This document shows, piece by piece, positions 8,267-38,169 of a DNA stretch of 64,000 nucleotides. The stretch spans positions 71,992-135,991 of the forward strand of contig JBAZTA010000003.1 of NCBI GenBank assembly GCA_041662125.1. The letters are read 5' to 3'. The position numbers were made by a program, and so were the translations under genes. Source of the stretch: Candidatus Omnitrophota bacterium. Its GTDB lineage: Bacteria > Omnitrophota > Gorgyraeia > Gygaellales > Profunditerraquicolaceae. Under the pieces are notes generated by a model. The model did not search any database. It saw nothing but the letters and a program-made list of their open reading frames with translations, and was not told the DNA's origin. Every line of letters starts with the position of its first letter. Positions within the stretch are counted from its first letter, which is position 1.

Positions 8267-8304
8267 ATAAAAATATAGAAAGAGTATCCTGTAAAGAGAT
8301 TCCA

Positions 8305-10826: not shown

Positions 10827-11549
10827 TTATTCAACTTCAAAGGAAATTATGACGGTAAATGATAATTGCGGGTAATCGAGCTCTTTTGGAAAAGCAGGAA
10901 ACGGTGAAGAATCCCTGATGCTTTTGATCGCGGTCTGCTTTAAATAGGAGTTTCCCGAAGATTTTTCTTCCAGAAATTTTAAATCAATCAGTTTTCCGTC
11001 ACTGGCAATGACAAATGATAAATATACTTCTCCGGTTACGGTGCGCACGTAGTTGTAATACGCCGCGCGCCTGATCTTTTCTCTGACGAACTGGTAATAA
11101 CCCATGTAAGAAGGGTTTTTGATCTTATCGGGTTCTACCATAGGTAAAGAGATTTTCTTTTTAATCGGGATCGTATCCGGCTTTATCAATGCCGGTTTAA
11201 TGAACGGTGATGGCCTGCGCAGGCTTTCTATATTTTTTGAGATATCCTGCAGGTTATTTTTTGAGTTGGGTAAAGGCGTTATTGTTTTATCAGCGGTTAT
11301 TGTGGGCTGCAGCGCTACCAGCGGCTGGTTTTTAAGCGCGATATTCTTGGCCGGGATTGCCTGCGGAGGCAGGCGTTTTACATAACTGATGCGGAGTTCC
11401 CGTTGTTTATTTTTTTCCGGTTTATGCAGTAATCCGGAATATTGAAAGAAAATTAAGCTATGGGCGAGCACAGAAAGAGTAAGTGATATTTGGAATATTT
11501 TGTCTGGGAACATGGATATTAGGTTAACATAGTAACTTAGTTTTTTCAA
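10827..11549 (-). CDS. tonB: energy transducer TonB
   Basis: 240 aa with an N-terminal TM, a Pro/Lys-rich spacer and the C-terminal TonB_C fold (YYQFVREKIRRAAYYNY...GEVYLSFVIASDGKLIDLKF...SSGNSYLKQTAIKSIRDSSPFPAFP). It lies immediately downstream of the BtuB-like receptor. Confidence 0.75.
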   Translation of the reverse strand: MKKLSYYVNLISMFPDKIFQISLTLSVLAHSLIFFQYSGLLHKPEKNKQRELRISYVKRLPPQAIPAKNIALKNQPLVALQPTITADKTITPLPNSKNNLQDISKNIESLRRPSPFIKPALIKPDTIPIKKKISLPMVEPDKIKNPSYMGYYQFVREKIRRAAYYNYVRTVTGEVYLSFVIASDGKLIDLKFLEEKSSGNSYLKQTAIKSIRDSSPFPAFPKELDYPQLSFTVIISFEVE

Positions 11550-11710: not shown

Positions 11711-13555
11711 TCAAAACTCAATTTTCACGCCATTGGTGATAGCAAATCCCGGCATGGGAAATTCGCGGATCACTTCATATTTTTTGTTTAACAGGTTATC
11801 AATAGAAAAGTAATACGTGAAATATGGGTTGAATCTTTTTGATGCATGTATCCCGATTGAGTAAAATCTTTTCACTTTGACCGTGTTTGCGGCATCGTGG
11901 TAGCGTTTGTCGGTAAATTGAGCGTTTATTTTTATGGAAAAGCCATGTAAGTCTGCGTATGCAAGAGAACAATCAGCTTTATGTTTTGGCTGGTAGATAA
12001 GGTATTTGTTTGTTTGGTCATCGATCGCGCGCAAAAAAGTATATCCGGTATTAAACTGAATATTTTTCGCAAGCGAGATTTTATTCTCAAATTCTATGCC
12101 GTCAATGAGCGCTGAGCCTACATTATCAGGCATCCAAACTCCTGCATCTTCTGCCCAGTTGATCAGGTCTTTGAAGTCATTCCTGAAGTAAGTCAGGCGT
12201 GTGGTTAAAAAGTCATTGATGGATAGTGTTGTGCCGATTTCTTTTGTTATTCCTTTTTCCGGTTTTAATCCGGGATTTCCTTTTGCCCATCCTTCATCAG
12301 GCCAGTAGAGATCATTAAAGGTAGGCGCGCGGAAAGACCGGCTGATCAATCCATGGAATTTTAAGACAGGATTGAAGCGGTAGAGAAAGGAAAAATTGGG
12401 GTTGCTTTGAGTTCCGAAATTCGAATAATCGTCGAATCTGGCCCCTAAGTTGAATTCTAAATTTTCTAAAGCAGTGAATTTGTTCTCTAAATAACCGGCT
12501 ACGACGTGGTAGTTATTCTTTTGGGAATTAGTGCTGTCATTGGTATTGCCAATATAGTTAAAGCCACATATGAAGTGATAGCGGTCCTGGAAGAGTTTTT
12601 TATTGCCTTGAATGTCAAAGCCTGTTACGTTGGTCGTATGGATATCTTTTTTATTTGCGGTATCAAAAAAAGATCCGGCTGTGAACTCACTAAAAATCAA
12701 TTTATCATAACTGTGGTAGGATTTGAACGATAATCCAGCCGATTCATCAGGCGTATATTTCCAGGTGAGATCTTGAGAATTCTTTCGGGAATTCTGCTTG
12801 TCATCGGAATCAGGCTGGGATAGAGAGCCGGGTGAGCCGAGGTTGCTGGAATAAAAGCCGGAATTGAATATGATTGCATGGGCTTCGTGAGGCGTATATT
12901 TTAATTTCATATTATAATCTTGCGCGTTGAATAATGCGTTTGCCCTGAAGCCGTCTGAATGGGTATATCCATGGGTGAAGAGGTATCCGAATTGTGAGTT
13001 TGCGTTTCCATTTGTCAGGCGCTGGGTATAGGTGCGTAAGCTCCCGATACTGGAATATAGTTCTGTCTTAGGGCTTTTGCGCGGTGGATCTTTGGTGATG
13101 ATGTTAATCGCCCCCCCCATGGCGCTTGAACCGTAGAGATGGGATACCGGCCCATGCACGATTTCTATTTTATCTACCGTATCCAGCGGGATCATGCTTA
13201 AATCAGCCTCTCCATTTCTTGGGCTGTTTATAGGCTTGCCGTCGACCATAACTAACGTTTGCGCCGCGCTTGAGCCGCGCATGCGAATGTTTTTGGTCGC
13301 CCCCGGTCCTCCATAATTACTTATATTGACTGCGGTAAATTGCGTGAGGAGTTCGCTGAGGTCGCCTGATGCTGTTTTTTCAATGTCTTCTGAAGTTATC
13401 ATATCGACATTTTGAGGGGTATTTCCCGATGGTTCTTCGGTGCGTGAAGGGGTTACAACGATCTTTTCTAATGAAAGGTCCTGACTTTTCGAAATGCCAT
13501 AAAAGCTTAAAAAAACCAGTGCCGTTAGTATTACGTTCTTGATGCGTGGTATCAT
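11711..13555 (-). CDS. TonB-dependent outer-membrane receptor, BtuB-like (cobalamin/siderophore class)
   Basis: 614 aa. It has a signal peptide, TonB box LEKIVVTP, a plug domain, a 22-strand barrel and a C-terminal aromatic residue (…GVKIEF). It lies directly downstream of a candidate cobalamin riboswitch within the cob/btu locus. Confidence 0.85.
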   Translation of the reverse strand: MIPRIKNVILTALVFLSFYGISKSQDLSLEKIVVTPSRTEEPSGNTPQNVDMITSEDIEKTASGDLSELLTQFTAVNISNYGGPGATKNIRMRGSSAAQTLVMVDGKPINSPRNGEADLSMIPLDTVDKIEIVHGPVSHLYGSSAMGGAINIITKDPPRKSPKTELYSSIGSLRTYTQRLTNGNANSQFGYLFTHGYTHSDGFRANALFNAQDYNMKLKYTPHEAHAIIFNSGFYSSNLGSPGSLSQPDSDDKQNSRKNSQDLTWKYTPDESAGLSFKSYHSYDKLIFSEFTAGSFFDTANKKDIHTTNVTGFDIQGNKKLFQDRYHFICGFNYIGNTNDSTNSQKNNYHVVAGYLENKFTALENLEFNLGARFDDYSNFGTQSNPNFSFLYRFNPVLKFHGLISRSFRAPTFNDLYWPDEGWAKGNPGLKPEKGITKEIGTTLSINDFLTTRLTYFRNDFKDLINWAEDAGVWMPDNVGSALIDGIEFENKISLAKNIQFNTGYTFLRAIDDQTNKYLIYQPKHKADCSLAYADLHGFSIKINAQFTDKRYHDAANTVKVKRFYSIGIHASKRFNPYFTYYFSIDNLLNKKYEVIREFPMPGFAITNGVKIEF

Positions 13556-26363: not shown

Positions 26364-26732
26364 TTATTCTTTTTTTAGGAAAGATAATACAATTCTTTCC
26401 AGCTCTTCCATCACGAGAGGTTTATGGATATAGTCAGAAGCCCCTAAGGCGATACATTTTTGGTAAATCTCTTCTTCGTCAGGTTTTTTACCTGTTACCA
26501 TGATGACTTGAATATCTTTGTTTTTCGCTTTAATGCATTGTAACGTCTCAATCCCGTCTTTACCGTCCATTTTTATATCGAGCAGTACTAATTGCGGGTG
26601 TTCTATATCAATTTTGCTTAATGCGTCATCGCCGCCGCAAGCAGTTTGTACGTCAATGTTACGCTTGCGGAAGAAACTAGCCGCAAACTCTCTGACATCC
26701 TGCTCATCATCAACAATCAGTAATTTAGCCAT
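26364..26732 (-). CDS. single-domain response regulator (CheY-like receiver)
   Basis: 122 aa with receiver residues LIVDDE, the phospho-Asp LLDIKMDG, and T/K at conserved positions. Confidence 0.85.
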   Translation of the reverse strand: MAKLLIVDDEQDVREFAASFFRKRNIDVQTACGGDDALSKIDIEHPQLVLLDIKMDGKDGIETLQCIKAKNKDIQVIMVTGKKPDEEEIYQKCIALGASDYIHKPLVMEELERIVLSFLKKE

Positions 26733-26799: not shown

Positions 26800-28695
26800 T
26801 TATTCAAATGTCAGGGTCAGTGAAAAATTATCCTCTGAGTTTCCCAGCGTTACAGGAATGGGAGAAAATGGCGATGCCTGTAAGACGCAGAGTTCAGCGA
26901 CAGCATTTAAATTTTGATTAGTAGAAGTTACAATTTTTACCGGGCTTTTAAGGTTGCCGTCTTCATCAAGGGCAAAAGACAATGAAACTTTGCCTTTTTG
27001 AGTGGGATCATGGCGTGTTTGGGTATTCATTAAGGACTTTATCTTATTTATAATAGTTGTTTTGTATTCATCCAAAGTGCCTGGCTCTTTATTGCCAGCT
27101 TCAGCCGTGTTGTCATTACCTTGAGCTTGGGCAAAGGACTGAATATAGCTTATGTCTTTATCACCGGTGAGGCTGGTATATTCAAGAGGTTCGGCGCCGG
27201 TGATTATATGGGGAGTAATAAAAATCACCAGCTCCGTCTTTATGTTTTCAGTCCTGGTATTTTTTGTGAAAATATTGAGAATTGGTATATCACCCAAGAA
27301 TGGTATCTTTTTTTCTTCTTTTTCCCGCTGGTCTTTTTTAAGGCCGGCGATAATTATGGTTGTGCCGTCTTTTACCATGATCGTTGTTTCAGACTCAGAA
27401 GTGGTGACGATGGGGATCTGGGTAATTTTGCCGTCTGCGGTTATGTCGGTGCGTTTCGCGGAGCTAATTTCAGGTTTTATTTTCATGGTGACAAAACCGT
27501 CCCGGTTTATCGTCGGGGTAACATAGAGTTTAATCCCGACATCGACGAAATTCACCGATTGTGAAGTAACCGAAGAATCTCCCGACTGCGTGATGGCGGA
27601 AGTGATATAGGCTTCTTTGGTCCCGACCAGGATCTTTGCTTCCTGGTTATTCAGTGCCATGATCCGGGGGCTGGAAAGGATCTTGGTTTTTCCTATTGCG
27701 CTGAGCAAGTTGATCACTGATTTATATTCGCCTTTTTTGCTTACCGTTTCATTTGCAGCAGCAACTCCGAAAGATAGTTTGTTAGGGATGCTGGTAACAT
27801 CGCTTAAGGAAGGCGCTGGCAGCGAACTGACCAGCCGGACGTGGTCTTTAAGCCAGTAATCCCAGTCAATTCCCATGGTGAACTGGTCTTTTTGAGGGGT
27901 AATTTCGATGATTTGAGCGTCAATTAAGACCTGTTGTGTTTTTTCATCAAAAGCAGTGATAATTTTGGCTATGTCGTTGAGTTTTTCCGGGTAATCGGTT
28001 ACCGCGATCTTATTGGTCCGTTCATCGATTTTCATGGAGCCGATCGATTTTGTGATTGTTTCTGCGAGTTTTGCGCTTAATTTTTCTGCCGTCGCGTATT
28101 TAAGCTCAAAGATCATGGTTTCCAGAGGCAAGTCGGTTTTCAGGATAAAACTTTCTATTTCAGCTACTTTTTCCGGCGTATCGACTATGGTAAGGGTGTT
28201 TGAGCCTTCATCAACCACAACTTTGCCGATATTTGATTTTAGCTGCATAATGGCTTTCGATAAGTCTGCGGCTTTGGCATTCTTTATATGGAATACCTGC
28301 ACCTCTTTTTTATCCTGGAAACGTTCACCGTAAATAAGCTCATAATCACGTTGCGTCATGACGTTGATAATATCGTTTTTCTTGTCATAGGCGAGGTCAT
28401 TGGCAGATAACAGGATTTGAAAGGCTTCCCAGAGATCAACATCTTTTAGAAAGAGCGTTACTTTTCCGGTGACATTTTTTCCGACAATAATATTTAACCC
28501 GGAGCGAGTCGCAAGCATTTTCAGGACATCAGTAATGTCCATGCCCTTTATATCAAGTGAAACCCTGTTTTGTTCAGACGGCTTGGATATTTCCATTTGC
28601 GCAAGTTTTGCGTTTTGAGATATTTCCTGCGCAAAGGCTCTTGGGATAAACACGAACAATAGGAAACATAGGTATATGGTAATTCCCTTTTTCAT
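26800..28695 (-). CDS. type II secretion / type IV pilus secretin (GspD/PilQ family) with C-terminal TonB_C-like domain
   Basis: Start reassigned to MKKGITIYLCFLLFVFIPRAFA (signal peptide; RBS GGAGGA sits 6 nt upstream). It has N0/N domains and a secretin core (ILSSPRIMALNNQEAKILVG...IPFLGDIPILNIFTKN...ELVIFITPHII). The final ~95 aa (GKVSLSFALDEDGNLKSPVKIV...AVAELCVLQASPFSPIP) align with the C-terminus of the local TonB at 10827-11549. Confidence 0.85.
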   Translation of the reverse strand: MKKGITIYLCFLLFVFIPRAFAQEISQNAKLAQMEISKPSEQNRVSLDIKGMDITDVLKMLATRSGLNIIVGKNVTGKVTLFLKDVDLWEAFQILLSANDLAYDKKNDIINVMTQRDYELIYGERFQDKKEVQVFHIKNAKAADLSKAIMQLKSNIGKVVVDEGSNTLTIVDTPEKVAEIESFILKTDLPLETMIFELKYATAEKLSAKLAETITKSIGSMKIDERTNKIAVTDYPEKLNDIAKIITAFDEKTQQVLIDAQIIEITPQKDQFTMGIDWDYWLKDHVRLVSSLPAPSLSDVTSIPNKLSFGVAAANETVSKKGEYKSVINLLSAIGKTKILSSPRIMALNNQEAKILVGTKEAYITSAITQSGDSSVTSQSVNFVDVGIKLYVTPTINRDGFVTMKIKPEISSAKRTDITADGKITQIPIVTTSESETTIMVKDGTTIIIAGLKKDQREKEEKKIPFLGDIPILNIFTKNTRTENIKTELVIFITPHIITGAEPLEYTSLTGDKDISYIQSFAQAQGNDNTAEAGNKEPGTLDEYKTTIINKIKSLMNTQTRHDPTQKGKVSLSFALDEDGNLKSPVKIVTSTNQNLNAVAELCVLQASPFSPIPVTLGNSEDNFSLTLTFE

Positions 28696-28816: not shown

Positions 28817-29458
28817 CTATAAGTATAGTTCAAATTTTTGCCCCTTATGATTGAGGATTATTTTGCCGTCAAGTATTTCTTCGACCATGAGTTCTCCGAT
28901 ACATTGGCCTTTGGAGACGTAATAGGTCTTTTCTGTTTTTTTATCTTCAATGATCGCCTGAGGATTATCACCGGCAATAACACCGACAAGATTTATGTCT
29001 TTCAGGAGATCGTGATTGACCGAAGCCATGCTTGTGCTTGTTTCCAAAGCAGCCTGGCTGTGAAACATTTGCTCGTTATTGATGCCTGTTTGATAATACT
29101 CAAGCGGTTTTATAGGGCTTGAACTTATTACTGGTTTCTGCACAATGCCTGGTTTCTCTTTTATGTCAGAGATGTTGATCGAAGGCGAGTTTATGAGAGG
29201 ATAGATCAGAGATCCTGTCAAGTATGCGAGTGAAGCGAAAAAACAGATCAAAACTATTTTTCCCGGGTTTAATCTTAAAGATATTATGTGTTGTGGCTTG
29301 ATTTTTGCATGGCCTGTTTTTGTTTGAACACTCGGCTCTGGAAGAGGGGGAACCCGTCCGGTTTGCAGCATTGATTGTTTTTCTGCCGGAAGGCGCTGTT
29401 TTTGCTCGTTTCGTATAAGCCGTAAAAGTTTTTCTTCAGGTGAAATATTGTCAGCCAT
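28817..29458 (-). CDS. GspC/GspB/PilP-like secretin-interacting inner-membrane protein
   Basis: 213 aa with one TM (IVLICFFASLAYLTGSLIY) and a C-terminal beta-domain (LVGVIAGDNPQAIIEDKKTEKTYYVSKGQCIG...ILDGKIILNHKGQKFEL) resembling the GspC HR / PilP fold. It lies between gspA and the secretin. Confidence 0.5.
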   Translation of the reverse strand: MADNISPEEKLLRLIRNEQKQRLPAEKQSMLQTGRVPPLPEPSVQTKTGHAKIKPQHIISLRLNPGKIVLICFFASLAYLTGSLIYPLINSPSINISDIKEKPGIVQKPVISSSPIKPLEYYQTGINNEQMFHSQAALETSTSMASVNHDLLKDINLVGVIAGDNPQAIIEDKKTEKTYYVSKGQCIGELMVEEILDGKIILNHKGQKFELYL

Positions 29459-29460
29459 AG

Positions 29461-30273
29461 TTATGCGCGTGCTGTTATTAAATGCTGGATAATCTCTTCA
29501 TCTACAGAGCTTTTCCCTTTCATGACGACAGTTTCCAGGGCATCATGGCATAAAAGCGCAATTTTGCGGGGATGCCCTTGAGTTTGTTCATAGATCAAAC
29601 GTATCGCTCCCAATGAAAATAACTCATCAGGGGCACTATGCCCGGCTTGCATAAGACGAAAAGCGATCATTTCTTTAACTTCCGTTTCGTCGAACGGATT
29701 AATGGTATATTTGAGGGCGATACGGTCGATAAAATTATTGATCCTCTTGATGCGCGGCAAGAGTTCCAGTTGCGCCATAATTACCAGTTGTAATAGTTTA
29801 AATTCATTGGTCTCGTAGTTGAGCAGCATGCGTAAGACTTCGAGGTTTTCGGTCGAGATAGTTTGTCCTTCATCAATAAGCAGGATTATCGTTTTATTCT
29901 CATTGATGCCGGCATGAAACAAATATTTTTCCAGGTCTTCTTTGAAAGTCAGGGTTGATTTAAAAGTTGATTTGATCCCGAAGATTTTTGTTAAGCTTAA
30001 CAGGAATTGAAATTCCGATTTATAACTGGGATCGAGGATCATATGGAAGACAAAATCGTCTTCGTTCTTGAAGGTTTGCAGGAGCGTGCGCGAGAGTGTT
30101 GTTTTGCCCATGCCGACATCCCCTAAAATTAAGCTTAAGCCTCTGCGCAGCCTTATGGCGATTTCCAGGCGTTTAAGTGTGGTGTCATGGCTGACGGAAC
30201 GGTAAAGGAACGCGGGGTCGGGGCTGGTAGAAAACGGTTCTTTTTCAAGTCCTAATACTTTAAAGTAACTCAT
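29461..30273 (-). CDS. gspA: T2SS protein A (ExeA/GspA-like AAA+ ATPase)
   Basis: 270 aa with Walker A LILGDVGMGKTTL, Walker B ILLIDEGQ and an ExeA-type N-terminus (PF13401-like). Confidence 0.8.
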   Translation of the reverse strand: MSYFKVLGLEKEPFSTSPDPAFLYRSVSHDTTLKRLEIAIRLRRGLSLILGDVGMGKTTLSRTLLQTFKNEDDFVFHMILDPSYKSEFQFLLSLTKIFGIKSTFKSTLTFKEDLEKYLFHAGINENKTIILLIDEGQTISTENLEVLRMLLNYETNEFKLLQLVIMAQLELLPRIKRINNFIDRIALKYTINPFDETEVKEMIAFRLMQAGHSAPDELFSLGAIRLIYEQTQGHPRKIALLCHDALETVVMKGKSSVDEEIIQHLITARA

Positions 30274-30481
30274 TCTTTATCTCATGAAGTGACTTATCTT
30301 GTTTTCTTAAGCTGCGAATTACCTTTAATGTTTCAACGTTTGAATCATTGAAATAACGATAATGGGTTTCAGGGCTACGGCTGATTTCTTTGAGAAGGCC
30401 AATTTTGAGGTAAAATTTTATGGTATGAATTGAATATCCGGTAATACGCGCTAAATCTTTTATTAAGTAAATGTTAGAAAT
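30260..30481 (-). CDS. small MerR-family HTH protein (non-ATG start; overlaps the gspA start codon)
   Basis: Reverse-strand frame reads ISNIYLIKDLARITGYSIHTIKFYLKIGLLKEISRSPETHYRYFNDSNVETLKVIRSLRKQDKSLHEIKNELL*, a canonical MerR HTH and wing. An RBS GGGAGG lies 5 nt before an AUU/AUC codon. It is absent from the ATG-only ORF track. Confidence 0.5.
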   Translation of the reverse strand: MSNIYLIKDLARITGYSIHTIKFYLKIGLLKEISRSPETHYRYFNDSNVETLKVIRSLRKQDKSLHEIKNELL

Positions 30482-30582: not shown

Positions 30583-31110
30583 TTAATCAATAGAAAGCTT
30601 GGAAATACTGAAGTTTGCTTCAAGTAACGCAGAGTTAGTGCGAGAGGTGAATTGAAATCGTTTGATACGTATTAATAAAAGTGAGTTCTCCAGATTGTAA
30701 ATGAATTTAACATAATCATTAAGCGCGCCTTCTGTCCTTAATTCTATCAGGATTTCTTCGTAACTACCCTCTTCTTTTCGCAGTTGAGGCCGTATATCTA
30801 GTATTCTGATATTCGCCGTATTTGCCATATTCTCAATTTCGGAAAGCGTTATGAGCGTGGAATTTTCTTTAGCTCCTGAAACCGGGCCGGAAGCGCTCAA
30901 ACTGGTGTATTTTGTCTGCAGGGCCTGTTTTTGGCTTAAGAGTTGAAGGTATTTCTTCAGTTTTGTTTTCGTGCTGTGTATTTCTATGTTTAAAAGGCTT
31001 ATTTTTCGAATAACAGGTGTTATGATAAAATTATAGAATACGCTCAAAGATACGATTCCTATAGTACAATACAATATTGCTTTTTCTCTTTTGCTAAGTA
31101 TTTTCTGCAT
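30583..31110 (-). CDS. GspM/PilO-like inner-membrane assembly protein
   Basis: 175 aa with an N-terminal TM, a coiled coil and a C-terminal ferredoxin-like domain. It sits at the gspM position. Confidence 0.5.
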   Translation of the reverse strand: MQKILSKREKAILYCTIGIVSLSVFYNFIITPVIRKISLLNIEIHSTKTKLKKYLQLLSQKQALQTKYTSLSASGPVSGAKENSTLITLSEIENMANTANIRILDIRPQLRKEEGSYEEILIELRTEGALNDYVKFIYNLENSLLLIRIKRFQFTSRTNSALLEANFSISKLSID

Positions 31111-32549
31111 TACTGTTTCCCTTTAGTATTGTTGCAGGCAATCTCAAAGTCGACCATATCGCCGGTTTGGCTTTTGTTTTGAGTGGCATATTTCACTTTT
31201 ATCGTGAAATTCCTGAATATCGGTAATTTCTCAAGCACAGAGATAAATTCGAACACGGTACTCAAAGTTTGCGCTTGGCCGTGTAATATGATCTGCGAGT
31301 TTTCTTCATAGATAAGACTGGTTAATGATAGTGTATTGGGGACCGCGTTGTTTAACTCATAGAATACTTCAAGGCTTGAAAGGCGTTTCTCTGACCTGGT
31401 TTCTAATATCTTAAGCCTTGTATCCATCTCTTCTAAGGGTTTTGCCTCAGTTGCGAGCCTGGAAAGTTCCGCTTTTAACCGGTTTAAATAGTCAGTTTTT
31501 GTATTGAGGTTCTTTGCTATTGCGGCGCTTACCATGAATATGATACCGATAATTAAGAGAGCAATACGCAGATATGCATAGCGTTTAGACAGTTTTATAT
31601 GTTCTGATTTTATCTCATGAGGCAGAAGTTTTAAAGATTCTTCAATACTTCCTCCTCCCAGTCCAAACATGCTGACATAAGAAAATGGCGTGTTGGCAAG
31701 TGTTGCGGTTACCGCATCCGGTAACCTTAATTGGTCAGGAAATGTCCGTATGTCAGAGGATGGAATGGCCTGATCATTGAGTACTTCGTTTATACGCGTC
31801 AGTGATGCAGGTGTCCCTAAACATACTATTTTTTGCGGCTCTGTTTTTCCGACTTCTTTGAGAAAGGCATCGTTAGTTTTAATGATTTCTTCCCGCAACA
31901 GGTTTTTCCAGCCGGATGCCGGGCCGCTTAATTTAAAATACCGGTTGAAGAGTATTTTATTGTTAGCAATGATGATCAATTCGACCAGTTGGCCGTCAAT
32001 ATCCAGAAGCATAACCGGGGAAATTTCCTCAGGGTATAAACGGCAATAAAGGTTACTTATGCCGTAAGAGCTTAAGGTGAAGGAGAGTTGAGAGCATTTG
32101 AAGCTGTTAAAGATCCTTAGAGAACGTTGGAGTGTTTCTTTATGGGCGATAATCGCATTGATCACAGAAAAACCGTCTTTGTCTTTTTCAATGACCTGAT
32201 AGGCGGTAATTAATTCTTGCGCAGAATAAGGAAGGTATTTTGCCGCCTGTAAAGAAAGCATTTTATCTATTTCTTCGGGTAAGTGTGTGGGGAATTTTAG
32301 ATACCGGCAGGTCGTATTTGCCCGGGGGAATGAAACAATGATCTCATTTTTATGGAACCCAAGTTTTTTTAATGCCTCAGATAGGGCTTCTGTTATCTTT
32401 TTCTCATCCATGCTTTCCGCAGGCAGCATGATGGTTTCTAACGCAACAAAATCATTATAAGGAGTATTGCCCGGAAGGCATTTAAGCACCCGTATGGTGT
32501 TTTCAATGATCTGACAGACAAAAATAGGTTTTTTAGTTTTAGCTTTCAT
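31110..32549 (-). CDS. GspL-like protein (PilM-type actin-like cytoplasmic domain fused to TM and PilN-like periplasmic domain)
   Basis: 479 aa: residues ~1-300 have the PilM/FtsA-like fold, a TM (LRIALLIIGIIFMVSAAIA) follows, then a ~130 aa periplasmic coiled-coil/PilN-like domain. Confidence 0.7.
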   Translation of the reverse strand: MKAKTKKPIFVCQIIENTIRVLKCLPGNTPYNDFVALETIMLPAESMDEKKITEALSEALKKLGFHKNEIIVSFPRANTTCRYLKFPTHLPEEIDKMLSLQAAKYLPYSAQELITAYQVIEKDKDGFSVINAIIAHKETLQRSLRIFNSFKCSQLSFTLSSYGISNLYCRLYPEEISPVMLLDIDGQLVELIIIANNKILFNRYFKLSGPASGWKNLLREEIIKTNDAFLKEVGKTEPQKIVCLGTPASLTRINEVLNDQAIPSSDIRTFPDQLRLPDAVTATLANTPFSYVSMFGLGGGSIEESLKLLPHEIKSEHIKLSKRYAYLRIALLIIGIIFMVSAAIAKNLNTKTDYLNRLKAELSRLATEAKPLEEMDTRLKILETRSEKRLSSLEVFYELNNAVPNTLSLTSLIYEENSQIILHGQAQTLSTVFEFISVLEKLPIFRNFTIKVKYATQNKSQTGDMVDFEIACNNTKGKQ

Positions 32550-33423
32550 GTAAGGATATTATTTTTTTTTCTTGCCGGTCGTAAACCGCGGCAAAGATAC
32601 TCTTTATTGTACCCATATTTCCAACAACTTCAATTAAAAAATAGTTTGATTTAAATTCGACTTTTTCCACAAGACTATTGAATATGTTGGTTTCTTCGTC
32701 ACCGGAAAGCGTGACCGTAATATCGTTTTTATCAGTGAATGCGCCTTTGGTATTGCGTAATGCTATGATCTTTGATGTTACGCTGTCTGCGTAATTATCT
32801 GCCATTGGTTCAGCAAGGGTCCGTGCAACATACCGGCAGAAAATCTTTAAGGTTTCCGGTGAAGCCGTGTTTACATTGAGTGTTTCCTTTGTGCTGTTTC
32901 CATAGATGGTGATGAGATCTTTGAGCATGGTTAGATATTCCCGGGTAAAATCCTTGACCAGGAGTAATTCTTCCGGAGCGCTGAATTTTTCTGCTTTGCA
33001 GGAATAACCGGATTTCTCATATATCTTGTTTTCATCAGCTTTATCACCGCGCCAGATCAGGATATTGTCAAACAGGCTGCTTGCGTCAGGGATCTGGCAA
33101 TTTTCAAGCAGGGTAAGCAATAATTCACGGGAGGCAGTATTGATGTTGATCTTACGTTCTTGGTCTGTTACTTCGAATATATCTTTGTTGTTTGCCCAGT
33201 TCTCAAGTAAAGAGTCGCAATCCGGTGTCTGGTCATTATCAATTTCCCTGATCGCCCGGTTTAATCCTGCGTGACTGAGGTATTGAGCTTTAAGCTTGTT
33301 TTTCTGGTAATTACTCATCCGCAGAGAGAATGATACCCGGTGGGCGATACTGATAGCAAGGATCGCTAGTATCACCAGGGTCCAGAGGGTTATGATAAGT
33401 GATTGCGCTTTTTTTTGAACCAT
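32539..33423 (-). CDS. gspK: T2SS minor pseudopilin K
   Basis: 294 aa with an N-terminal hydrophobic helix (SLIITLWTLVILAILAI) and two repeats of the GspK-specific NTAS helix-hairpin motif (ININTAS, LNVNTAS). Confidence 0.75.
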   Translation of the reverse strand: MVQKKAQSLIITLWTLVILAILAISIAHRVSFSLRMSNYQKNKLKAQYLSHAGLNRAIREIDNDQTPDCDSLLENWANNKDIFEVTDQERKININTASRELLLTLLENCQIPDASSLFDNILIWRGDKADENKIYEKSGYSCKAEKFSAPEELLLVKDFTREYLTMLKDLITIYGNSTKETLNVNTASPETLKIFCRYVARTLAEPMADNYADSVTSKIIALRNTKGAFTDKNDITVTLSGDEETNIFNSLVEKVEFKSNYFLIEVVGNMGTIKSIFAAVYDRQEKKIISLHES

Positions 33424-33438
33424 TCCGGTTGAGATGAT

Positions 33439-34026
33439 CTATCCTCCCTGCGGTATATATATAGTCCGAACAAGCGTGATCGTTGATTTCTTTTTTATCG
33501 ACACAAGCACTTTTACTGCTGCCGGCAGCTTTTCTTGAGCGATCCAGGAAGACTGCCACTGCAGGGGCTCTTTGGGATCAGGAGCCTGTCCGTAACTAAA
33601 TGAGATCTTTTCAATATCGCCTGTCATCTCATCAGGTTGGATGTTTGATTTTTCGTTAAGGCTTTCTTTGTTTTTCCGGCAGAGCCGTAAAAGTTTATTA
33701 TTGACGAGTGTATAGGAAATAAATGCCACGTCTTTCTGGCGGTTGTTTCCCTCGTAGGTGTCAAGTATCGTCAGAAAGTTGATCTCGCTGCCGGTCCCCG
33801 AGAAAAGAGGTTTACCTTTTGAGAACAAAAACGAGTTCCTTAAGTCGCTGTTAATACGTTCTATTATCTGCCCTCCCGCTAAAAAACCGTTGAGTGCTTC
33901 ATCAATATTGCCGTACCCGAAAATTCCTATTTGGAGAGCAGAGAAAATACTCAGGGCTACCACAAGCAATAGTGTTGAGGCAATAAGTAATTCTATAAGG
34001 GTGAATCCCCGGGTTTTACTGGTCAT
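33439..34026 (-). CDS. minor pseudopilin, GspJ-like (prepilin-type N-terminal cleavage/methylation domain)
   Basis: 195 aa with the prepilin motif RGFTLIELLIASTLLLVV. Confidence 0.65.
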   Translation of the reverse strand: MTSKTRGFTLIELLIASTLLLVVALSIFSALQIGIFGYGNIDEALNGFLAGGQIIERINSDLRNSFLFSKGKPLFSGTGSEINFLTILDTYEGNNRQKDVAFISYTLVNNKLLRLCRKNKESLNEKSNIQPDEMTGDIEKISFSYGQAPDPKEPLQWQSSWIAQEKLPAAVKVLVSIKKKSTITLVRTIYIPQGG

Positions 34027-34397
34027 CGTAAATATGTTTGAAAGGTTATCGTCTCTTGCCTTTTTGACCTCATCCAGCGTATATCAACGCTGGAGGTGTA
34101 CAGGTTTAATTCTGTGTTTAATTCTTTCTGAAAGCGCAATTGGAATTTGCCGGCCGTAGTGCGGCTGTCAGGATTTTCTTGAGCGATAAGAGAATTATTC
34201 TCTTTGAATTCCAGTTCCTGCAGCTTATCTTTTGCCAGTAAAACTGCCTGGAGCACCTCGCAGGATAACGCCGCCGAACGGGTAGAAAAAGAGAATCCTT
34301 GTAATATAATGACGATACCCGATGAAAGTATCGCTATAGAGATCAGCAGCTCTAATAATGAAAAAGCGCCTTTACTGCTCCTTAGTTTTAATCCCAC
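34023..34397 (-). CDS. minor pseudopilin, GspI-like
   Basis: 124 aa with KGAFSLLELLISIAIL. Size and gene order fit GspI. Confidence 0.65.
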   Translation of the reverse strand: MGLKLRSSKGAFSLLELLISIAILSSGIVIILQGFSFSTRSAALSCEVLQAVLLAKDKLQELEFKENNSLIAQENPDSRTTAGKFQLRFQKELNTELNLYTSSVDIRWMRSKRQETITFQTYLR

Positions 34398-34812
34398 CGA
34401 ATACTCCTTGTGTTGTCAGGGTGATGTTTTGTTTTTGCCTGTTGATAAGTGTGATGGTGACTTTGTCGATTGTTCCGTCAGGATAAACGAATATCTCCGG
34501 TTGGTCGGATTCTATGTGTATGCCGTCGGGCAGGCGGTAATTCCGAAAATGGCTGGCATCGGCCTCAAATTTTACCCGGTAACTATTTTCTTGAGTGTCC
34601 AGGATTAAACGTATGGGTTTTGTTTCGACGATCGCCCGCTGGCTCAGGAAGTTGATATATGCTTGTAACTGCCGTGAAGCGTTGGCCAGTTGTATGTTCT
34701 CGGCGGAACGCTTGAATTGGGGTAATGACAGGGCGGTCAAGATCCCCAGCAGGGTTATGACGATAAGCAGTTCGATAAATGTAAAACCAACATGTCCCGG
34801 CGTCTTGGTCAT
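34372..34812 (-). CDS. minor pseudopilin, GspH-like
   Basis: 146 aa with GFTFIELLIVITLLGILTAL. Confidence 0.65.
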   Translation of the reverse strand: MTKTPGHVGFTFIELLIVITLLGILTALSLPQFKRSAENIQLANASRQLQAYINFLSQRAIVETKPIRLILDTQENSYRVKFEADASHFRNYRLPDGIHIESDQPEIFVYPDGTIDKVTITLINRQKQNITLTTQGVFGGIKTKEQ

Positions 34813-34818
34813 AGCCTT

Positions 34819-35238
34819 TTACCAGTTACTTATATCATCATGATCCCCTTCTATCATATTGGCACCCGCAGAAGAAAGATCATAATTTTCATTATGCGCG
34901 CCGGGAGATGTATAGGAATAGGCATTGCCCCAGGGGTCTTTGGGAACTTTTTTAAGGTACGGCCCTTTCCAGCCCTTCAGCGATCCCGGGTTAGTGATAA
35001 GTGCTTGGAGCCCTTCTGTAGTCGCAGGATAACGGTCGTTATCGGTTTCGAAGATGTCTAATGCCAGTGCGATAGATGCGTTTATTTCCGACTGGGCAGC
35101 GGCGATCTTTGCAGTTTCAGAACGCCCCACGAGCCGGGGAGCGACCATCGCAGCTAATATGCCGATAATGACCACGACAAGCATTAATTCTATTAACGTA
35201 AAGGCTTTAAGAGGTTGTTGCTTGAGCTTTTCTATCAT
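34819..35238 (-). CDS. gspG: T2SS major pseudopilin G
   Basis: 139 aa. KAFTLIELMLVVVIIGILAAMVAP...DPWGNAYSY...YDLSSAGANMIEGDHDDISNW has the GspG-specific DPWG and C-terminal calcium-site motifs. Confidence 0.9.
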   Translation of the reverse strand: MIEKLKQQPLKAFTLIELMLVVVIIGILAAMVAPRLVGRSETAKIAAAQSEINASIALALDIFETDNDRYPATTEGLQALITNPGSLKGWKGPYLKKVPKDPWGNAYSYTSPGAHNENYDLSSAGANMIEGDHDDISNW

Positions 35239-35241
35239 GAG

Positions 35242-36450
35242 CTATCTCACAATTAAATTGATCTGGAATATTGGCAAAAGCATTGCAATGACGATGAAAC
35301 CAACCACTAACCCCATGATCAAGATTATCACCGGCTCTAAAAGACGGGTTAAAGTTTTAATAATCCGGTCGACTTCTTTTTCATAATCAACGGCGATCCT
35401 TAAAAGTGCTTTCTCGAGATTTCCGGTTTCTTCTCCGGTATTGACGATGTTCGTCACCAAGGACGGGAATAAGGCAGAGCCTTTGAGGCATTGGGAAAGG
35501 CTTCCCCCCTGTGATAACGTATGTTTAAACGTTAAAACCTCTTGTTTGAGGACTTCGTTTTGAATGGATGATGCGGTGACATCCAGCGCGTATACAATCG
35601 GGATCCCTCCAGAGATTAACAAAGATAAGGTGCGGACAAAACGGCTGATCTCAGTCTTTAAGATAATGATCCCTAATCCCGGTATTTTGATCTTGAAACG
35701 GTCAAAGATCATTCTGCCTTCAGGTTTCATAGAGAGTTGACGGATGATGAAAACAATGACTATGATAATTAACCCGAGTATGAGCCAGTACGTGCGTAAG
35801 AATATTGAAACAGTAACTAAAATCTGTGTCGGCAAGGGCAAAACCTGCCCCATATCAGTAAACATGGTGACCAGGCGGGGAATAACAAACCCTAAAAGGA
35901 TAAAGACCGTGATGATACTGACTGCTAAAAGGAAAAACGGGTAGGTTAATGCTGCTAAGAGAGAACTTTTAAATTCTTCTTCTTTTTCCATGAATTCTGC
36001 CAGCCGTTTGAGCGCGGGCTCAACTGACCCGCCTACTTCGCCGGAATGGACCATGGAAATGTATAATGGCGAGAATATCCCGGGATATTCAGAGAAACTT
36101 TCTGACAGGGATCGACCGTCTCTAATTTTATGAGCGATATCCTGTAATACTGCTTTGAAATATGTGTCGGCAGTCTGGTTGGATAATATGGTAAGGCCAT
36201 TTAAGATAGTGACGCCTGATTCTATCAGGCTTGCGAGTTGTCCGGTAAAAAGGGAGACGTTTTTATCGGATACCTTCCAGAGCCGCCGTAAACCTGTTTT
36301 CTGAAGGTTGGGGGCCGCGCTTTGAATAGAAACCGGAAAATACCCCTTTTGGGTGATTTTATTTACAGCGTCTTGTTCGCTCTCCGCTTCAATACTGCCC
36401 TCTATGATCTCTTGTGGTTTTGATTTTGCGGTATAAATATATTTTTGCAT
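35242..36450 (-). CDS. gspF: T2SS/T4P inner-membrane platform protein F
   Basis: 402 aa with duplicated GspF domains and 3 TM segments. YIYTAKSKPQEIIEGSIEAESEQDA is the typical N-terminus. Confidence 0.9.
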   Translation of the reverse strand: MQKYIYTAKSKPQEIIEGSIEAESEQDAVNKITQKGYFPVSIQSAAPNLQKTGLRRLWKVSDKNVSLFTGQLASLIESGVTILNGLTILSNQTADTYFKAVLQDIAHKIRDGRSLSESFSEYPGIFSPLYISMVHSGEVGGSVEPALKRLAEFMEKEEEFKSSLLAALTYPFFLLAVSIITVFILLGFVIPRLVTMFTDMGQVLPLPTQILVTVSIFLRTYWLILGLIIIVIVFIIRQLSMKPEGRMIFDRFKIKIPGLGIIILKTEISRFVRTLSLLISGGIPIVYALDVTASSIQNEVLKQEVLTFKHTLSQGGSLSQCLKGSALFPSLVTNIVNTGEETGNLEKALLRIAVDYEKEVDRIIKTLTRLLEPVIILIMGLVVGFIVIAMLLPIFQINLIVR

Positions 36451-36459
36451 GAGTACTCT

Positions 36460-38169
36460 TTAGGTGAGTTCTTCCTGCTGGGTGACGCGTATAACTTCGG
36501 TTAACGTCGTAATGCCAAGTTCAACTTTTTGCATTCCGTTTTGACGCATCGTGCGCATCCCTTGCGCAATGGCCTTTTGCATAATGTGCTGGCTGGAGGC
36601 GTGATTTATGATGAGATCCCGTATAGCGTCAGTGACCGTGAGGATTTCATAGATCGCAGTCCTCCCCTGGTATCCGGTAAAACGGCATTCTTCGCAGCCC
36701 GTGCCTTCATAAAACACGGCATTTCCAGATTTGGAATTCATATCTTTTATCTGTCCCAGTATTTCTTTTTTCGACGGTGAGACAATCTTGCATTTTGGGC
36801 AGATCACCCTTACTAAACGCTGAGCAATAAGGCATTCAAGCGAGGATGATACTAAAAATGGCTCCACTCCCATATCGACAAGACGAGTTACTGCGCCGGA
36901 TGCGTCGTTGGTATGCAGGGTTGAGAAAACCAGATGCCCCGTTAATGCGGCGCGTATCGCGATCTCTGCGGTCTCATAATCCCGGACTTCTCCGATCATC
37001 ATGATATCAGGGTCATGGCGCAGCATGTGCCGCAATCCCATGGCAAAATCAAGGCCGATCTTAGGTGAGACCTGCATTTGGTTGACGCCTTTGAGCTGGT
37101 ATTCTATGGGGTCTTCTATCGTGATGATCTTGACTGAGTCTGAGTTAATACGCGCAAGGCTGGCATAAAGTGTCGTCGATTTTCCTGAACCGGTCGGGCC
37201 GGTAACGAAAATGATCCCGTGAGGTTTTTTGATCACCTGCTCGATGATCGCTAAATCCTGCGGCAGAAGCCCTAATTTCTCAAGTTCGAGGAAAAAACGC
37301 TGGCTTAAGATCCTGATGTGTACAGCTTCCCCAAAGGCCGTCGGCAGGGTCGAAATACGCAGGTCAAGTTCGGTATCATTAATGCCTATTTTTATCCTTC
37401 CATCTTGCGGCAGCCTGTGTTCTGCGATATTAAGGTGCGCCATGATCTTAATGCGTGAGACGATCGCTTGATGGAATACACTAATGGTTTTGGGAATGTT
37501 GATATTGTAGAGGATGCCATCAATACGAAACCGAGTACGCAATTCACCTTCAAATGGTTCCAGATGAATATCGGTTGCCCGGTCTTTAATGGCTTCGGTC
37601 AGTATTTGATTGACAAATTTAATGATTGAGGCGCCTTCGGCCAAGGATTCAAGGTCTTCGGTTTTTTGTATATCGAGTTTTGCTTCTTCAGCAGGAAGTT
37701 TTAGCGATATCATCTTCTCGAGCGTTTCAGCTCCTACCCCGTAATATTTCCGGATAGCTTCCTGAATTTGGAATTCGCTGGTTAAGACACCTTTTATTTC
37801 AAAGCCCAAAAGCAGCCGTAAGTCGTCAAGGGTGCGGGTATCCAGCGGGTCTGCCATGGCGATGGTCAGCGTATTTTCGTTTAAGTCAATAGGGATGATC
37901 TTATAATGGCTTGAGAATTTCGGAGTGACCTTTTGAATTACTGCCGTTGGAATCTCCAAATCATTTAACTTGATGTACGGGACATTGAGCTGGTGGGAAA
38001 GCACGGTGAATATCCTCTCCTCGATCGCGAATCCCATTCGAGAGAGGGTAGTGCAGAGATGTTCATGAGTTTTCTTCTGTTCTTTTAATCCGGCTTCTAA
38101 CTGTTCTTTGGTGATGATGCCTTGATCCAGCAGCATCTTGCCGATCATTTTCGTAGATTTTGTGGACAT
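36460..38169 (-). CDS. gspE: T2SS/T4P assembly ATPase (GspE/PilB) with N-terminal MshEN-type domain
   Basis: 569 aa with Walker A GPTGSGKST, Asp/His boxes and a C-terminal CPKC...CEEC zinc site. The N-terminus MIGKMLLDQGIITKEQLEAGLKEQ ... LCTTLSRMGFAIEERIFTVLSHQLNV matches the tandem MshEN c-di-GMP-binding motif. Confidence 0.9.
   Translation of the reverse strand: MSTKSTKMIGKMLLDQGIITKEQLEAGLKEQKKTHEHLCTTLSRMGFAIEERIFTVLSHQLNVPYIKLNDLEIPTAVIQKVTPKFSSHYKIIPIDLNENTLTIAMADPLDTRTLDDLRLLLGFEIKGVLTSEFQIQEAIRKYYGVGAETLEKMISLKLPAEEAKLDIQKTEDLESLAEGASIIKFVNQILTEAIKDRATDIHLEPFEGELRTRFRIDGILYNINIPKTISVFHQAIVSRIKIMAHLNIAEHRLPQDGRIKIGINDTELDLRISTLPTAFGEAVHIRILSQRFFLELEKLGLLPQDLAIIEQVIKKPHGIIFVTGPTGSGKSTTLYASLARINSDSVKIITIEDPIEYQLKGVNQMQVSPKIGLDFAMGLRHMLRHDPDIMMIGEVRDYETAEIAIRAALTGHLVFSTLHTNDASGAVTRLVDMGVEPFLVSSSLECLIAQRLVRVICPKCKIVSPSKKEILGQIKDMNSKSGNAVFYEGTGCEECRFTGYQGRTAIYEILTVTDAIRDLIINHASSQHIMQKAIAQGMRTMRQNGMQKVELGITTLTEVIRVTQQEELT

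What the first reader, a model, noticed from the sequence alone, without database searches (positions are those of the whole stretch)
26800..28695. Secretin fused to a TonB C-terminal domain
The last ~95 residues of the T2SS/T4P secretin (…KGKVSLSFALDEDGNLKSPVKIVTSTNQNLNAVAELCVLQASPFSPIPVTL…) align residue-by-residue with the C-terminal domain of the TonB encoded 16 kb away (GEVYLSFVIASDGKLIDLKF…SSGNSYLKQTAIKSIRDSSPFPAFP). The TonB_C domain contacts the TonB box of outer-membrane receptors or peptidoglycan. Placing one on a secretin, where GspD/PilQ normally carry an S-domain or pilotin-binding tail, is not a described architecture. It could tether the secretin to the cell wall or to a TonB-box partner, or replace the missing peptidoglycan-binding domain of the short GspA.
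Basis: seen in the sequence. Interest (0 to 1): 0.8.

Follow-up and report, generated by a model that had tools for sequence, protein, structure and literature searches.

The report
Secretin with a TolA/TonB-type tail
The outer-membrane pore protein of a type II secretion system in an uncultivated Omnitrophota bacterium really does end in a TolA/TonB-type domain, a conserved lineage-wide feature that no paper I could search describes and that probably anchors or helps assemble the pore rather than transmitting energy.

Summary
The gene at 26800..28695 (-) encodes a 631-aa secretin: signal peptide, N0/STN, two Secretin_N domains and the secretin domain. A conserved linker with one helix follows, then a 90-residue C-terminal domain (residues 541-631, nt 26803..27075).

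It is not a fusion artefact. 117 of the 120 closest database homologues carry it, as do 69 of 80 related genome loci, nearly all Candidatus Omnitrophota. It sits in the same gspE-to-gspD operon in those loci. Scattered lineages lack it.

Related secretins carry three tandem copies. A Tad/CpaC-type secretin clade, one member labelled Omnitrophota, carries the same domain.

The protein is not a TonB. It has no membrane anchor, no proline-rich spacer and no exbBD neighbour. The most likely role is a passive periplasmic anchoring or assembly module, but the ligand is unknown.

I found no paper describing it, although annotation pipelines flag it and sometimes misname these secretins "energy transducer TonB". 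I rate it a new variant of a known kind, of moderate interest.

The parts
26800..28695 (-). Secretin gene (631 aa plus stop), GspD/PilQ-type, with a C-terminal TolA/TonB-type domain
   Evidence: ORF. ATG at 28695 preceded by AGGAGG. Pfam and NCBIfam hits. 100% identical database protein P0001.
28630..28695 (-). Signal peptide (residues 1-22, ...PRAFA|QE). No lipobox and no TonB-type membrane anchor.
   Evidence: Read from the sequence. Helix 2-15 in the model.
28330..28566 (-). N0 / STN domain (residues 44-122)
   Evidence: Pfam STN and type_II_gspD_N0. AF2 secondary structure.
27949..28305 (-). Two Secretin_N ring domains (N1 at residues 131-187, N3-like at 192-249)
   Evidence: Pfam Secretin_N, two stretches. 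AF2 model.
27202..27933 (-). Secretin pore domain (residues 255-498)
   Evidence: Pfam PF00263, E 9e-46. Foldseek best matches are PulD, GspD, ExeD and PilQ.
27076..27201 (-). Linker (residues 499-540): conserved motif EPLEYxSLTxDKDIxxIQ, one predicted helix (513-533, S-domain-like), then a variable stretch
   Evidence: Alignments A1 and A2. AF2: helix at pLDDT 52-72, residues 529-536 below 50.
26803..27075 (-). TolA/TonB-type C-terminal domain (residues 541-631): alpha1 541-560, beta1 568-577, beta2 587-591, alpha2 595-607, SPFxPxP loop, beta3 621-630
28817..29458 (-). 213-aa GspC-like protein (HR-domain type), immediately upstream of the secretin
   Evidence: Weak Pfam T2SSC hit, E 1e-3, residues 123-213. 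Syntenic in 78 of 80 related loci.
29461..30273 (-). GspA/MshM-like AAA ATPase, short form (270 aa, no periplasmic part)
   Evidence: Pfam AAA_22. NCBIfam TIGR03015, E 1e-47, below cut-off. Present in 60 of 80 loci.
30583..32549 (-). GspM/PilO-like protein (30583..31110) and GspL-equivalent PilM-PilN fusion (31110..32549)
32539..35238 (-). Pseudopilins GspK, J, I, H and G
   Evidence: NCBIfam: GspG 135 bits, above the 88.85 cut-off. GspK, J, I and H match below cut-off.
35242..38169 (-). GspF platform protein (35242..36450) and GspE ATPase (36460..38169), the latter with an MshEN c-di-GMP-binding N-terminus
   Evidence: NCBIfam.
10827..11549 (-). Comparator: a TonB-type protein (240 aa: N-terminal hydrophobic helix, Pro-rich stretch, TonB_C/TonB_2 domain) next to a TonB-dependent receptor (11711..13555)
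   Evidence: The tail profile hits it at E 1e-17.

Best explanation
**Shown.** This is the outer-membrane secretin of a complete type II secretion operon (gspE-F-G-H-I-J-K-L-M-A-C-D) in a Candidatus Omnitrophota bacterium. After the pore domain, each subunit continues into a conserved linker with one helix, about 40 residues in all. A TolA/TonB-type alpha-beta-beta-alpha-beta domain then ends exactly at the C-terminus.

**Inferred.** In T2SS secretins the C-terminal segment lies on the periplasmic face just under the outer membrane. An assembled 12-15-mer would therefore carry a ring of these domains hanging below the membrane on flexible tethers.

The protein has a cleavable signal peptide. 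It lacks the TonB membrane helix and proline-rich spacer, and no exbBD genes lie nearby. The domain therefore cannot transmit proton-motive force. It most likely acts as a passive binding module.

Its proposed ligand is an abundant envelope component: peptidoglycan, or a peptidoglycan- or outer-membrane-associated protein bound by beta-strand addition. Binding would be strengthened by many copies acting together. The effect would be to hold the pore in place or help it assemble. This is the job done elsewhere by PilQ AMIN domains, by GspA/GspB, or by the S-domain with its pilotin. The ligand is not known.
For: **Architecture and fold:**

**Real and conserved.**
- 117 of 120 nearest database homologues carry the tail.
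- Of 80 related genome loci, 65 have it in frame and 4 have it just downstream in another frame. Nearly all are Omnitrophota MAGs.
- The operon context is the same in those loci.
- The tail is less conserved than the pore (34% against 74% identity to the window protein) but keeps its hallmark positions.

**T2SS identity:** GspG scores above the NCBIfam cut-off. GspE, F, K, J, I and H match their families. Foldseek ranks PulD, GspD and ExeD first.

**Not an energy transducer:** a signal peptide followed by N0 at the N-terminus, and no ExbB/ExbD genes in the operon.

**A generic binding module acting by multiple copies.**
- Copy number varies from 1 to 3 on secretins (P0121 has three).
- The same domain sits on a different secretin class, Tad/CpaC-type with other N-terminal domains, in a small clade that includes an Omnitrophota record.
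- Among the best 150 matches to the domain there are 120 non-secretin proteins. 78 of these carry 2-5 tandem copies. The few inspected have signal peptides and no TonB anchor, and the one locus examined is not next to exbBD.

**Accessory rather than core:** tail-less relatives are scattered through the tree of tail-bearing ones.

[quoted passage not shown] C-termini of T2S secretins were not detected at the cell surface (PMC4453517).
Against: - No ligand was identified and no binding was tested.
- Solved TonB and TolA C-terminal domains bind specific protein strands (TonB box, TolB N-terminus, phage g3p). They are not established peptidoglycan binders. A specific protein partner is therefore as plausible as a wall anchor.
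- Comparison of tail-bearing and tail-less loci revealed no compensating gene.
- The position of the C-terminus is inferred from proteobacterial T2SS secretins. This secretin scores below both the GspD and PilQ equivalog cut-offs, and T4P secretin C-termini have been reported to be extracellular (PMC4453517).
- Repeated loss shows the domain is dispensable in some lineages.
Confidence: 0.55

Rival explanations
1. Docking within the machine. The TonB-type domain binds a beta-strand of the secretion machine itself by strand addition. Candidates are the N0/STN domain of the same or a neighbouring secretin subunit, the conserved EPLEYxSLT linker motif of a neighbour, or the GspC-like protein. Binding would lock the ring, guide its assembly without a pilotin, or couple it to the inner-membrane platform.
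For: - TonB and TolA C-terminal domains work by beta-strand addition (PMC12204202).
- Secretin N0 has the fold of the signalling domain of TonB-dependent receptors. An interaction between TonB-like proteins and N0 has been proposed for ExeB-ExeD (PMC4098917) and for TonB3-PilQ (PMC5285504).
- This secretin has an N0/STN domain.
- It also has a conserved linker motif that AF2 leaves without secondary structure, the kind of segment that often serves as a binding motif.
- The linker of about 42 residues could in principle span much of the periplasmic vestibule.
Against: - The same domain is fused to a Tad/CpaC-type secretin that has no N0/STN domain.
- The stretch between the signal peptide and N0 is not conserved, so there is no TonB-box-like N-terminal strand.
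- The EPLEY-type linker is not strictly coupled to the tail. A second linker type occurs both with and without it.
- Copy number varies from 1 to 3, which is unusual for a stoichiometric lock.
- No complex prediction could be run.
Confidence: 0.2
2. Surface display. The C-terminus passes to the outside of the cell, as reported for some type IV pilus secretins. The TolA/TonB-type domains would then form an extracellular ring that binds a ligand, a substrate or a host cell.
For: - BfpB and PilQ C-termini were reported to be extracellular (PMC4453517).
- This secretin scores slightly higher on the PilQ model than on the GspD model, below cut-off for both.
Against: - The operon is T2SS-like: GspG scores above cut-off, GspH-K are present and no retraction ATPase is in the operon.
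- T2S secretin C-termini were not detected outside the cell (PMC4453517).
- Foldseek ranks T2SS secretins first.
- Every TolA or TonB C-terminal domain among the matches belongs to a periplasmic protein.
Confidence: 0.07
3. Cross-talk with the Ton system. The secretin-borne domain binds TonB boxes of TonB-dependent receptors, or competes with genuine TonB. This would link secretion to nutrient uptake or gate the pore.
For: - The tail profile is close to the genome's own TonB domain (E 1e-17).
- That TonB sits beside a TonB-dependent receptor 15 kb away.
Against: - There is no linkage to the receptor or to exbBD in any of the 80 loci.
- The domain has no link to a motor.
- Tandem-array relatives point to a generic binding role.
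- Closeness to the local TonB is what common ancestry within the lineage would produce anyway.
Confidence: 0.05
4. Artefact or evolutionary relic. The fusion would be an assembly or gene-calling error, or a decaying remnant without function.
For: - Several lineages lack the tail.
- In four loci it lies in another reading frame.
- The Pfam score of the single sequence is borderline.
Against: - A continuous ORF is found in 65 independent genomes and in 117 of 120 database homologues.
- The hallmark residues are invariant.
- The predicted fold is confident.
Confidence: 0.03

Closest known systems
T2SS secretins GspD / PulD / ExeD (and T4P PilQ)
   Same: - Signal peptide, N0/STN, Secretin_N ring domains and secretin pore domain.
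- Last gene of a gsp operon, after a GspC-like gene.
- Best structural matches are PulD, GspD, ExeD and PilQ.
   Different: - Only three N-domains.
- Scores below the GspD and PilQ equivalog cut-offs.
- The C-terminus carries a 90-residue TolA/TonB-type domain after a short S-domain-like helix. Characterised secretins end with an S-domain that binds a pilotin (PMC6882859).
- No pilotin candidate was found nearby.
TonB C-terminal domain (PF03544) and TolA domain III / TonB_2 (PF13103)
   Same: - Same fold and hallmark residues.
- The domain sits at the extreme C-terminus of the protein, behind a flexible spacer.
   Different: - It is attached to an outer-membrane pore rather than to an inner-membrane helix that engages ExbBD or TolQR.
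- No SHLS-type anchor, no Pro-rich rod and no motor genes nearby. Force transduction is therefore not possible.
Peptidoglycan- or envelope-anchoring accessories of secretins: PilQ AMIN domains, GspA/ExeA with GspB/ExeB/OutB
   Same: - Accessory, variable-copy periplasmic modules or partner proteins that anchor or assemble the secretin.
- ExeB was historically called "TonB-like" and binds the periplasmic part of ExeD (PMC4098917, PMC9239104).
   Different: - AMIN domains are N-terminal and have a different fold.
- GspB and ExeB are separate inner-membrane proteins whose similarity to TonB lies in the Pro-rich region, not in a TonB_C domain.
- Here the module is a true TonB/TolA-fold domain fused in cis at the C-terminus.
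TonB_C-like domains in non-Ton machines (Myxococcus AgmX/PglI-type tails; PocAB-TonB3 needed for P. aeruginosa pili)
   Same: - A TonB-type domain recruited to a motility, pilus or secretion apparatus.
- A weak NCBIfam hit to the AgmX/PglI C-terminal domain.
- TonB3 has been proposed to contact PilQ N0 (PMC5285504).
   Different: Those proteins keep an inner-membrane, motor-linked context. None is a secretin fusion.

Membership tests
Secretin superfamily (PF00263), GspD/PilQ type | Secretin pore domain above the Pfam gathering score | tested here: met
   PF00263, 156 bits against a cut-off of 27.5, residues 331-498
Secretin superfamily (PF00263), GspD/PilQ type | Periplasmic N0/STN domain plus Secretin_N ring domains | tested here: met
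   Secretin_N, two copies, 81.2 bits. STN scores 27.5 (cut-off 28.4) and type_II_gspD_N0 scores 27.5 (cut-off 27). The folds are seen in the AF2 model.
Secretin superfamily (PF00263), GspD/PilQ type | Encoded with T2SS or T4P partner genes | tested here: met
   gspE, F, G-K, L- and M-like, A-like and C-like genes lie upstream on the same strand. The arrangement is syntenic in related loci.
Secretin superfamily (PF00263), GspD/PilQ type | Forms a gated 12-15-mer pore in the outer membrane | not testable with these tools
   Only a monomer model was possible
T2SS GspD equivalog (TIGR02517) / PilQ (TIGR02515) | Score above the curated equivalog or subfamily cut-off | tested here: not met
   GspD 242.7 against 351.35. 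PilQ 255.8 against 284.35. It is a divergent lineage-specific branch, filed as GspD-type by operon context only.
TonB_C / TonB_2 domain family (PF03544 / PF13103) | Pfam gathering score | tested here: inconclusive
   Whole protein: TonB_C 25.5 against 24.6, just met. Isolated tail: 21.2-21.9, not met. TonB_2: 17.5-19.6 against 22, not met. At family level 29 of 30 and 27 of 30 homologous tails match, with best E-values of 2e-10 and 4.5e-9.
TonB_C / TonB_2 domain family (PF03544 / PF13103) | alpha-beta-beta-alpha-beta fold of TonB/TolA C-terminal domains | tested here: met
TonB / TolA energy transducers (whole-protein family) | N-terminal transmembrane helix that engages ExbBD or TolQR (SHLS-type motif) | tested here: not met
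   The N-terminus is a cleavable signal peptide followed by the N0 domain
TonB / TolA energy transducers (whole-protein family) | Periplasm-spanning proline-rich or helical domain II between anchor and C-terminal domain | tested here: not met
   The secretin N-domains and pore lie between the N-terminus and the C-terminal domain
TonB / TolA energy transducers (whole-protein family) | Genomic association with exbB/exbD or tolQ/tolR | tested here: not met
   None in the operon or in the 80 related loci examined for gsp genes. A genome-wide search was not possible.
Pilotin-dependent secretins (S-domain type) | C-terminal S-domain helices that bind a lipoprotein pilotin | tested here: inconclusive
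   One conserved helix (513-533) follows the pore domain at modest confidence. No pilotin-like gene lies next to the secretin. The rest of the genome was not searched.

The most novel reading that the evidence does not exclude
The fusion could be a "Rosetta stone" showing that TonB/TolA-type C-terminal domains are natural ligands of secretins. On this reading the domain binds, by beta-strand addition, the secretin's own N0/STN domain or linker strand. Omnitrophota would then have hard-wired in cis the contact long suspected in trans for ExeB-ExeD and TonB3-PilQ, giving a self-piloting or self-locking secretin.
Probability: 0.15. Interest if true: 0.75.

Novelty: new variant of a known kind. 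Interest (0 to 1): 0.5.

Why it matters
Secretins are the outer-membrane gates of type II and III secretion, type IV pili and filamentous phage export. How they are targeted, anchored and stabilised is known almost only from Proteobacteria, through S-domains with pilotins, AMIN domains and GspAB.

In a whole uncultivated phylum, the T2SS secretins and at least one clade of Tad secretins instead end in one to three TolA/TonB-fold domains. This indicates a different solution to the same problem.

It also shows that the TonB/TolA C-terminal fold is used as a stand-alone periplasmic binding module outside energy transduction. The fusion offers a compact experimental handle on an old suggestion that was never resolved: that TonB-like proteins touch secretins. 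The relevant piece is a 90-residue domain attached to its own secretin.

On the practical side, annotation pipelines currently name some of these secretins "energy transducer TonB", which is wrong.

Tried and rejected
- **Chance or low-complexity similarity:** rejected.
- **Gene-fusion artefact:** rejected by conservation.
- **The longer TTG start at 28833:** rejected. A ribosome-binding site precedes the ATG at 28695, and the longer ORF overlaps the upstream gene.
- **Tail compensating for the short GspA:** GspA-like presence and tail presence vary independently.
- **A compensating gene in tail-less loci (pilotin, stand-alone TonB_C protein):** nothing consistent lies downstream, and no stand-alone tail domain appears in those loci.
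- **A conserved TonB-box-like strand ahead of N0:** that region is not conserved.
- **Strict coupling of the EPLEY linker motif to the tail:** not found. There are two linker types.
- **Genome scan with the tail alignment alone:** failed because no stretch was conserved enough. I used the full-length alignment instead.
- **Literature:** six full-text searches and a check of a 2025 study on TonB/TolA evolution found no description of the fusion.
- **Rfam scan of the window:** nothing in or near the operon.
Full report
**1. The observation**

The minus-strand ORF ending at 26800 can be read from a TTG at 28833 (677 aa). That start overlaps the upstream gene. An ATG at 28695 is preceded by AGGAGG at the right distance.

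Pfam finds these domains in the protein:
- STN/N0, residues 48-112.
- Two Secretin_N domains.
- Secretin, residues 331-498, E 9e-46.
- TonB_C, residues 566-616, E 1.8e-5, 25.5 bits against a gathering score of 24.6.
- TonB_2, residues 542-627, E 4.6e-3.

I compared the last 106 residues by BLASTP with the 240-aa TonB-type protein at 10827..11549 (-). This gives 31% identity over 67 residues, E 2e-6. For the single sequence the match is real but borderline.

**2. Family-level evidence makes it unambiguous**

A database search returned more than 100 secretins at 50-87% identity. Those that carry a taxon name are from Candidatus Omnitrophota/Omnitrophica, and about half have precomputed TonB_C or TonB_2 hits.
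- All but three truncated entries have a 124-173-residue extension after the pore domain. A profile of the domain finds it in 117 of 120.
- In an alignment of 30 tails, 29 hit TonB_2 and 27 hit TonB_C individually, with best E-values of 2e-10 and 4.5e-9.
- The tail profile finds the Helicobacter pylori TonB C-terminal domain in the PDB at E 7.5e-7. It finds the window's own TonB at E 1e-17.

The full-length model lays out as follows:
- N0, residues 44-122.
- N1, residues 131-187.
- An N3-like domain, residues 192-249.
- The pore domain, residues 255-498.
- A helix, residues 513-533, at modest confidence.
- The TolA/TonB-type domain, residues 541-630, pLDDT 81-92.

Foldseek ranks PulD, GspD, ExeD and PilQ structures first for the whole chain.

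**3. Context**

The secretin is the last gene of a complete T2SS-type operon on the minus strand:
- GspE (36460..38169).
- GspF.
- GspG, 135 bits against a curated cut-off of 88.85.
- GspH, I, J and K.
- A PilM-PilN fusion in the place of GspL.
- A GspM/PilO-like protein.
- A short GspA/MshM-like AAA ATPase.
- A 213-aa GspC-like protein.

The secretin itself scores below the curated cut-offs of both the GspD and the PilQ models. It belongs to a divergent, lineage-specific branch.

**4. Distribution**

A scan of one genome per species found 154 relatives. The best 80 loci are almost all Omnitrophota MAGs. The tail is distributed among them as follows:

| Tail status | Loci |
|---|---|
| In frame with the secretin | 65 |
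| Immediately downstream in another frame (frameshift or split) | 4 |
| Locus cut by a contig end | 2 |
| Absent (short or charged endings) | 9 |

On a rough neighbour-joining tree of the pore domain, the tail-less sequences are scattered among tail-bearing ones. This suggests an ancestral fusion with repeated loss.

Gene order is conserved. The GspC-like gene precedes the secretin in 78 of 80 loci, and the GspA-like ATPase is present in 60 of 80. Presence of the ATPase does not track presence of the tail.

**5. Relatives of the domain**

I searched the domain profile against 1.84 billion representative proteins. This gave 8508 hits at E <= 1e-3 and 475 at E <= 1e-10. The best 150 break down as follows:
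- 30 are secretins or secretin fragments with one to three tails. P0121 has three in tandem.
- 120 are not secretins. Of these, 78 carry 2-5 tandem copies of the domain.

The tandem-array proteins I inspected begin with signal peptides, or in one case a lipoprotein-like leader. They lack a TonB-type anchor and Pro-rich region. The one locus examined has no exbBD neighbours.

One hit, P0220, is a Tad/CpaC-type secretin (T2SS-T3SS_pil_N plus Secretin) with two copies of the domain. It is encoded between an RcpC-like gene and a TadZ/TadA-like gene. Its only close relatives with the same architecture form a small clade that includes an Omnitrophota record. CpaC secretins from other phyla lack the domain.

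In this lineage the domain has therefore been attached to two different secretin classes.

**6. What it is not**

It is not a TonB. There is no N-terminal membrane helix, no proline-rich rod and no motor genes. The labels "energy transducer TonB" and "TonB family protein" given to some homologues by annotation pipelines are misnomers. It is also not an artefact, as sections 2 and 4 show.

**7. How it most likely works**

*Shown:* the domain order, the fold, the conservation, the variable copy number and the operon.

*Established knowledge:* in T2SS secretins the C-terminal S-domain and its lipidated pilotin sit on the outside of the pore core, under the outer membrane (PMC6882859). T2S secretin C-termini were not detected on the cell surface (PMC4453517). 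TonB and TolA C-terminal domains bind their targets by beta-strand addition (PMC12204202).

*Inference:* an assembled secretin would carry a ring of 12-15 TolA/TonB-type domains on tethers of about 40 residues beneath the outer membrane. In relatives with three copies, the number would be up to three times that. Four observations point to a passive, multi-copy anchoring or assembly module that binds an abundant envelope component:
- There is no motor link.
- Copy number varies.
- The domain occurs on unrelated secretin N-termini.
- Its nearest relatives are tandem arrays.

Functionally it would resemble PilQ AMIN domains, the GspA/GspB system or the S-domain with its pilotin. I put this at about 0.55. 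The ligand, peptidoglycan or a protein strand, is unresolved.

**8. Rivals**

- **Docking within the machine** (about 0.2). The domain would bind the secretin's own N0/STN domain, the conserved linker motif, or GspC.
  - For: N0 shares the fold of TonB-dependent receptor signalling domains. TonB-like contacts with N0 have been proposed for ExeB (PMC4098917) and TonB3 (PMC5285504).
  - Against: the Tad-type fusion has no N0. There is no conserved strand ahead of N0. The tail and the linker type are only loosely coupled.
- **Surface exposure of the C-terminus**, as reported for BfpB and PilQ (about 0.07).
- **Cross-talk with TonB-dependent receptors** (about 0.05).
- **Relic or artefact** (about 0.03).

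**9. Novelty and interest**

Full-text searches found nothing on this architecture. These combined secretin with TonB C-terminal, TonB_C, TonB-like, Omnitrophota and Omnitrophica. A dedicated 2025 study of TonB/TolA evolution mentions neither secretins nor Omnitrophota. The architecture is visible in databases but appears undescribed.

It is a new variant of a known kind: a secretin with a new class of C-terminal accessory domain. It is not a new kind of system. Interest is moderate at 0.5, for three reasons:
- The feature is lineage-wide.
- It touches the open question of how non-proteobacterial secretins are anchored and assembled.
- It gives a handle on the old TonB-secretin hints.

The function remains inferred, and the organisms are uncultivated.

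Noticed in passing
window 36460-38169 (-), 26364-26732 (-), 25188-26357 (-): The GspE ATPase has an MshEN-type c-di-GMP-binding N-terminal motif (48.2 bits against a cut-off of 38). A response regulator and a GAF/HD-GYP phosphodiesterase lie directly downstream of the secretin and are syntenic in about 20 related loci. This suggests c-di-GMP control of this T2SS.
   Followed up: partly
window 31110-32549 (-): The protein in the GspL position hits Pfam PilM_2 (N-terminal) and PilN (C-terminal). It is an explicit PilM-PilN fusion rather than a recognisable GspL.
   Followed up: no
window 30274-30582: A 309-bp non-coding gap inside the operon, between the gspM-like and gspA-like genes, contains a promoter-like site (TTGACT-16-TATACT, 30538-30511, minus strand). 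A similar gap exists in related loci. It may be an internal promoter for a gspA-gspC-gspD sub-operon.
   Followed up: partly
P0121 (851 aa, metagenomic): A GspD-type secretin of the same family carries three tandem TolA/TonB-type domains at its C-terminus (residues 518-601, 632-716 and 765-851).
   Followed up: partly
L081:1851-5126 (P0220) and relatives P0278-P0281: A Tad/CpaC-type secretin (T2SS-T3SS_pil_N plus Secretin) carries two TonB_C domains embedded in a lysine-rich tail, within an RcpC - secretin - TadZ/TadA locus. The two repeat units are nearly identical, so a real duplication cannot be told apart from an assembly artefact. One relative is labelled Omnitrophota. CpaC secretins of other phyla lack the domain.
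   Followed up: partly
P0122, P0123, P0125, P0128, P0129; L082:2449-3603: The nearest non-secretin relatives of the tail are signal-peptide (or lipoprotein-like) proteins made of 2-5 tandem TonB_C/TonB_2 domains. They have no TonB anchor, and the one locus examined has no exbBD neighbours. This is a periplasmic repeat family of unknown role.
   Followed up: partly
L021:3355-7041: A single 1229-codon ORF runs from the secretin, with its tail truncated before the last strand, straight into GspE. This is either an assembly or sequencing error or a real fusion. In L014 and L075 gspE also follows the secretin, so gene order differs in that subgroup.
   Followed up: no
L046, L050, L067, L077 (just after the secretin ORF): The tail domain is present but in a different reading frame from the secretin, indicating a frameshift or split gene. 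L067 comes from a record labelled as a chromosome-level MAG assembly, so a genuinely split form is possible.
   Followed up: no
database homologues P0012, P0017, P0023, P0029, P0102: Full-length secretins of this family are named "TonB family protein", "energy transducer TonB" or "TonB C-terminal domain-containing protein" by JGI and NCBI pipelines. This is a systematic misannotation caused by the tail.
   Followed up: yes
window 499-540 of the protein (nt 27076-27201) and homologues: Two alternative linker types follow the pore domain across the family: EPLEYxSLTxDKDIxxIQ and SSFTDFSExxPxDGAxxKM. The second occurs both with and without the tail. Their roles are unknown.
   Followed up: partly
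window 6453-6954 (-), 8193-8376 (-), 20309-20497 (-): Rfam finds an RNase P RNA, two tRNAs and a cobalamin riboswitch. None is related to the secretin.
   Followed up: no
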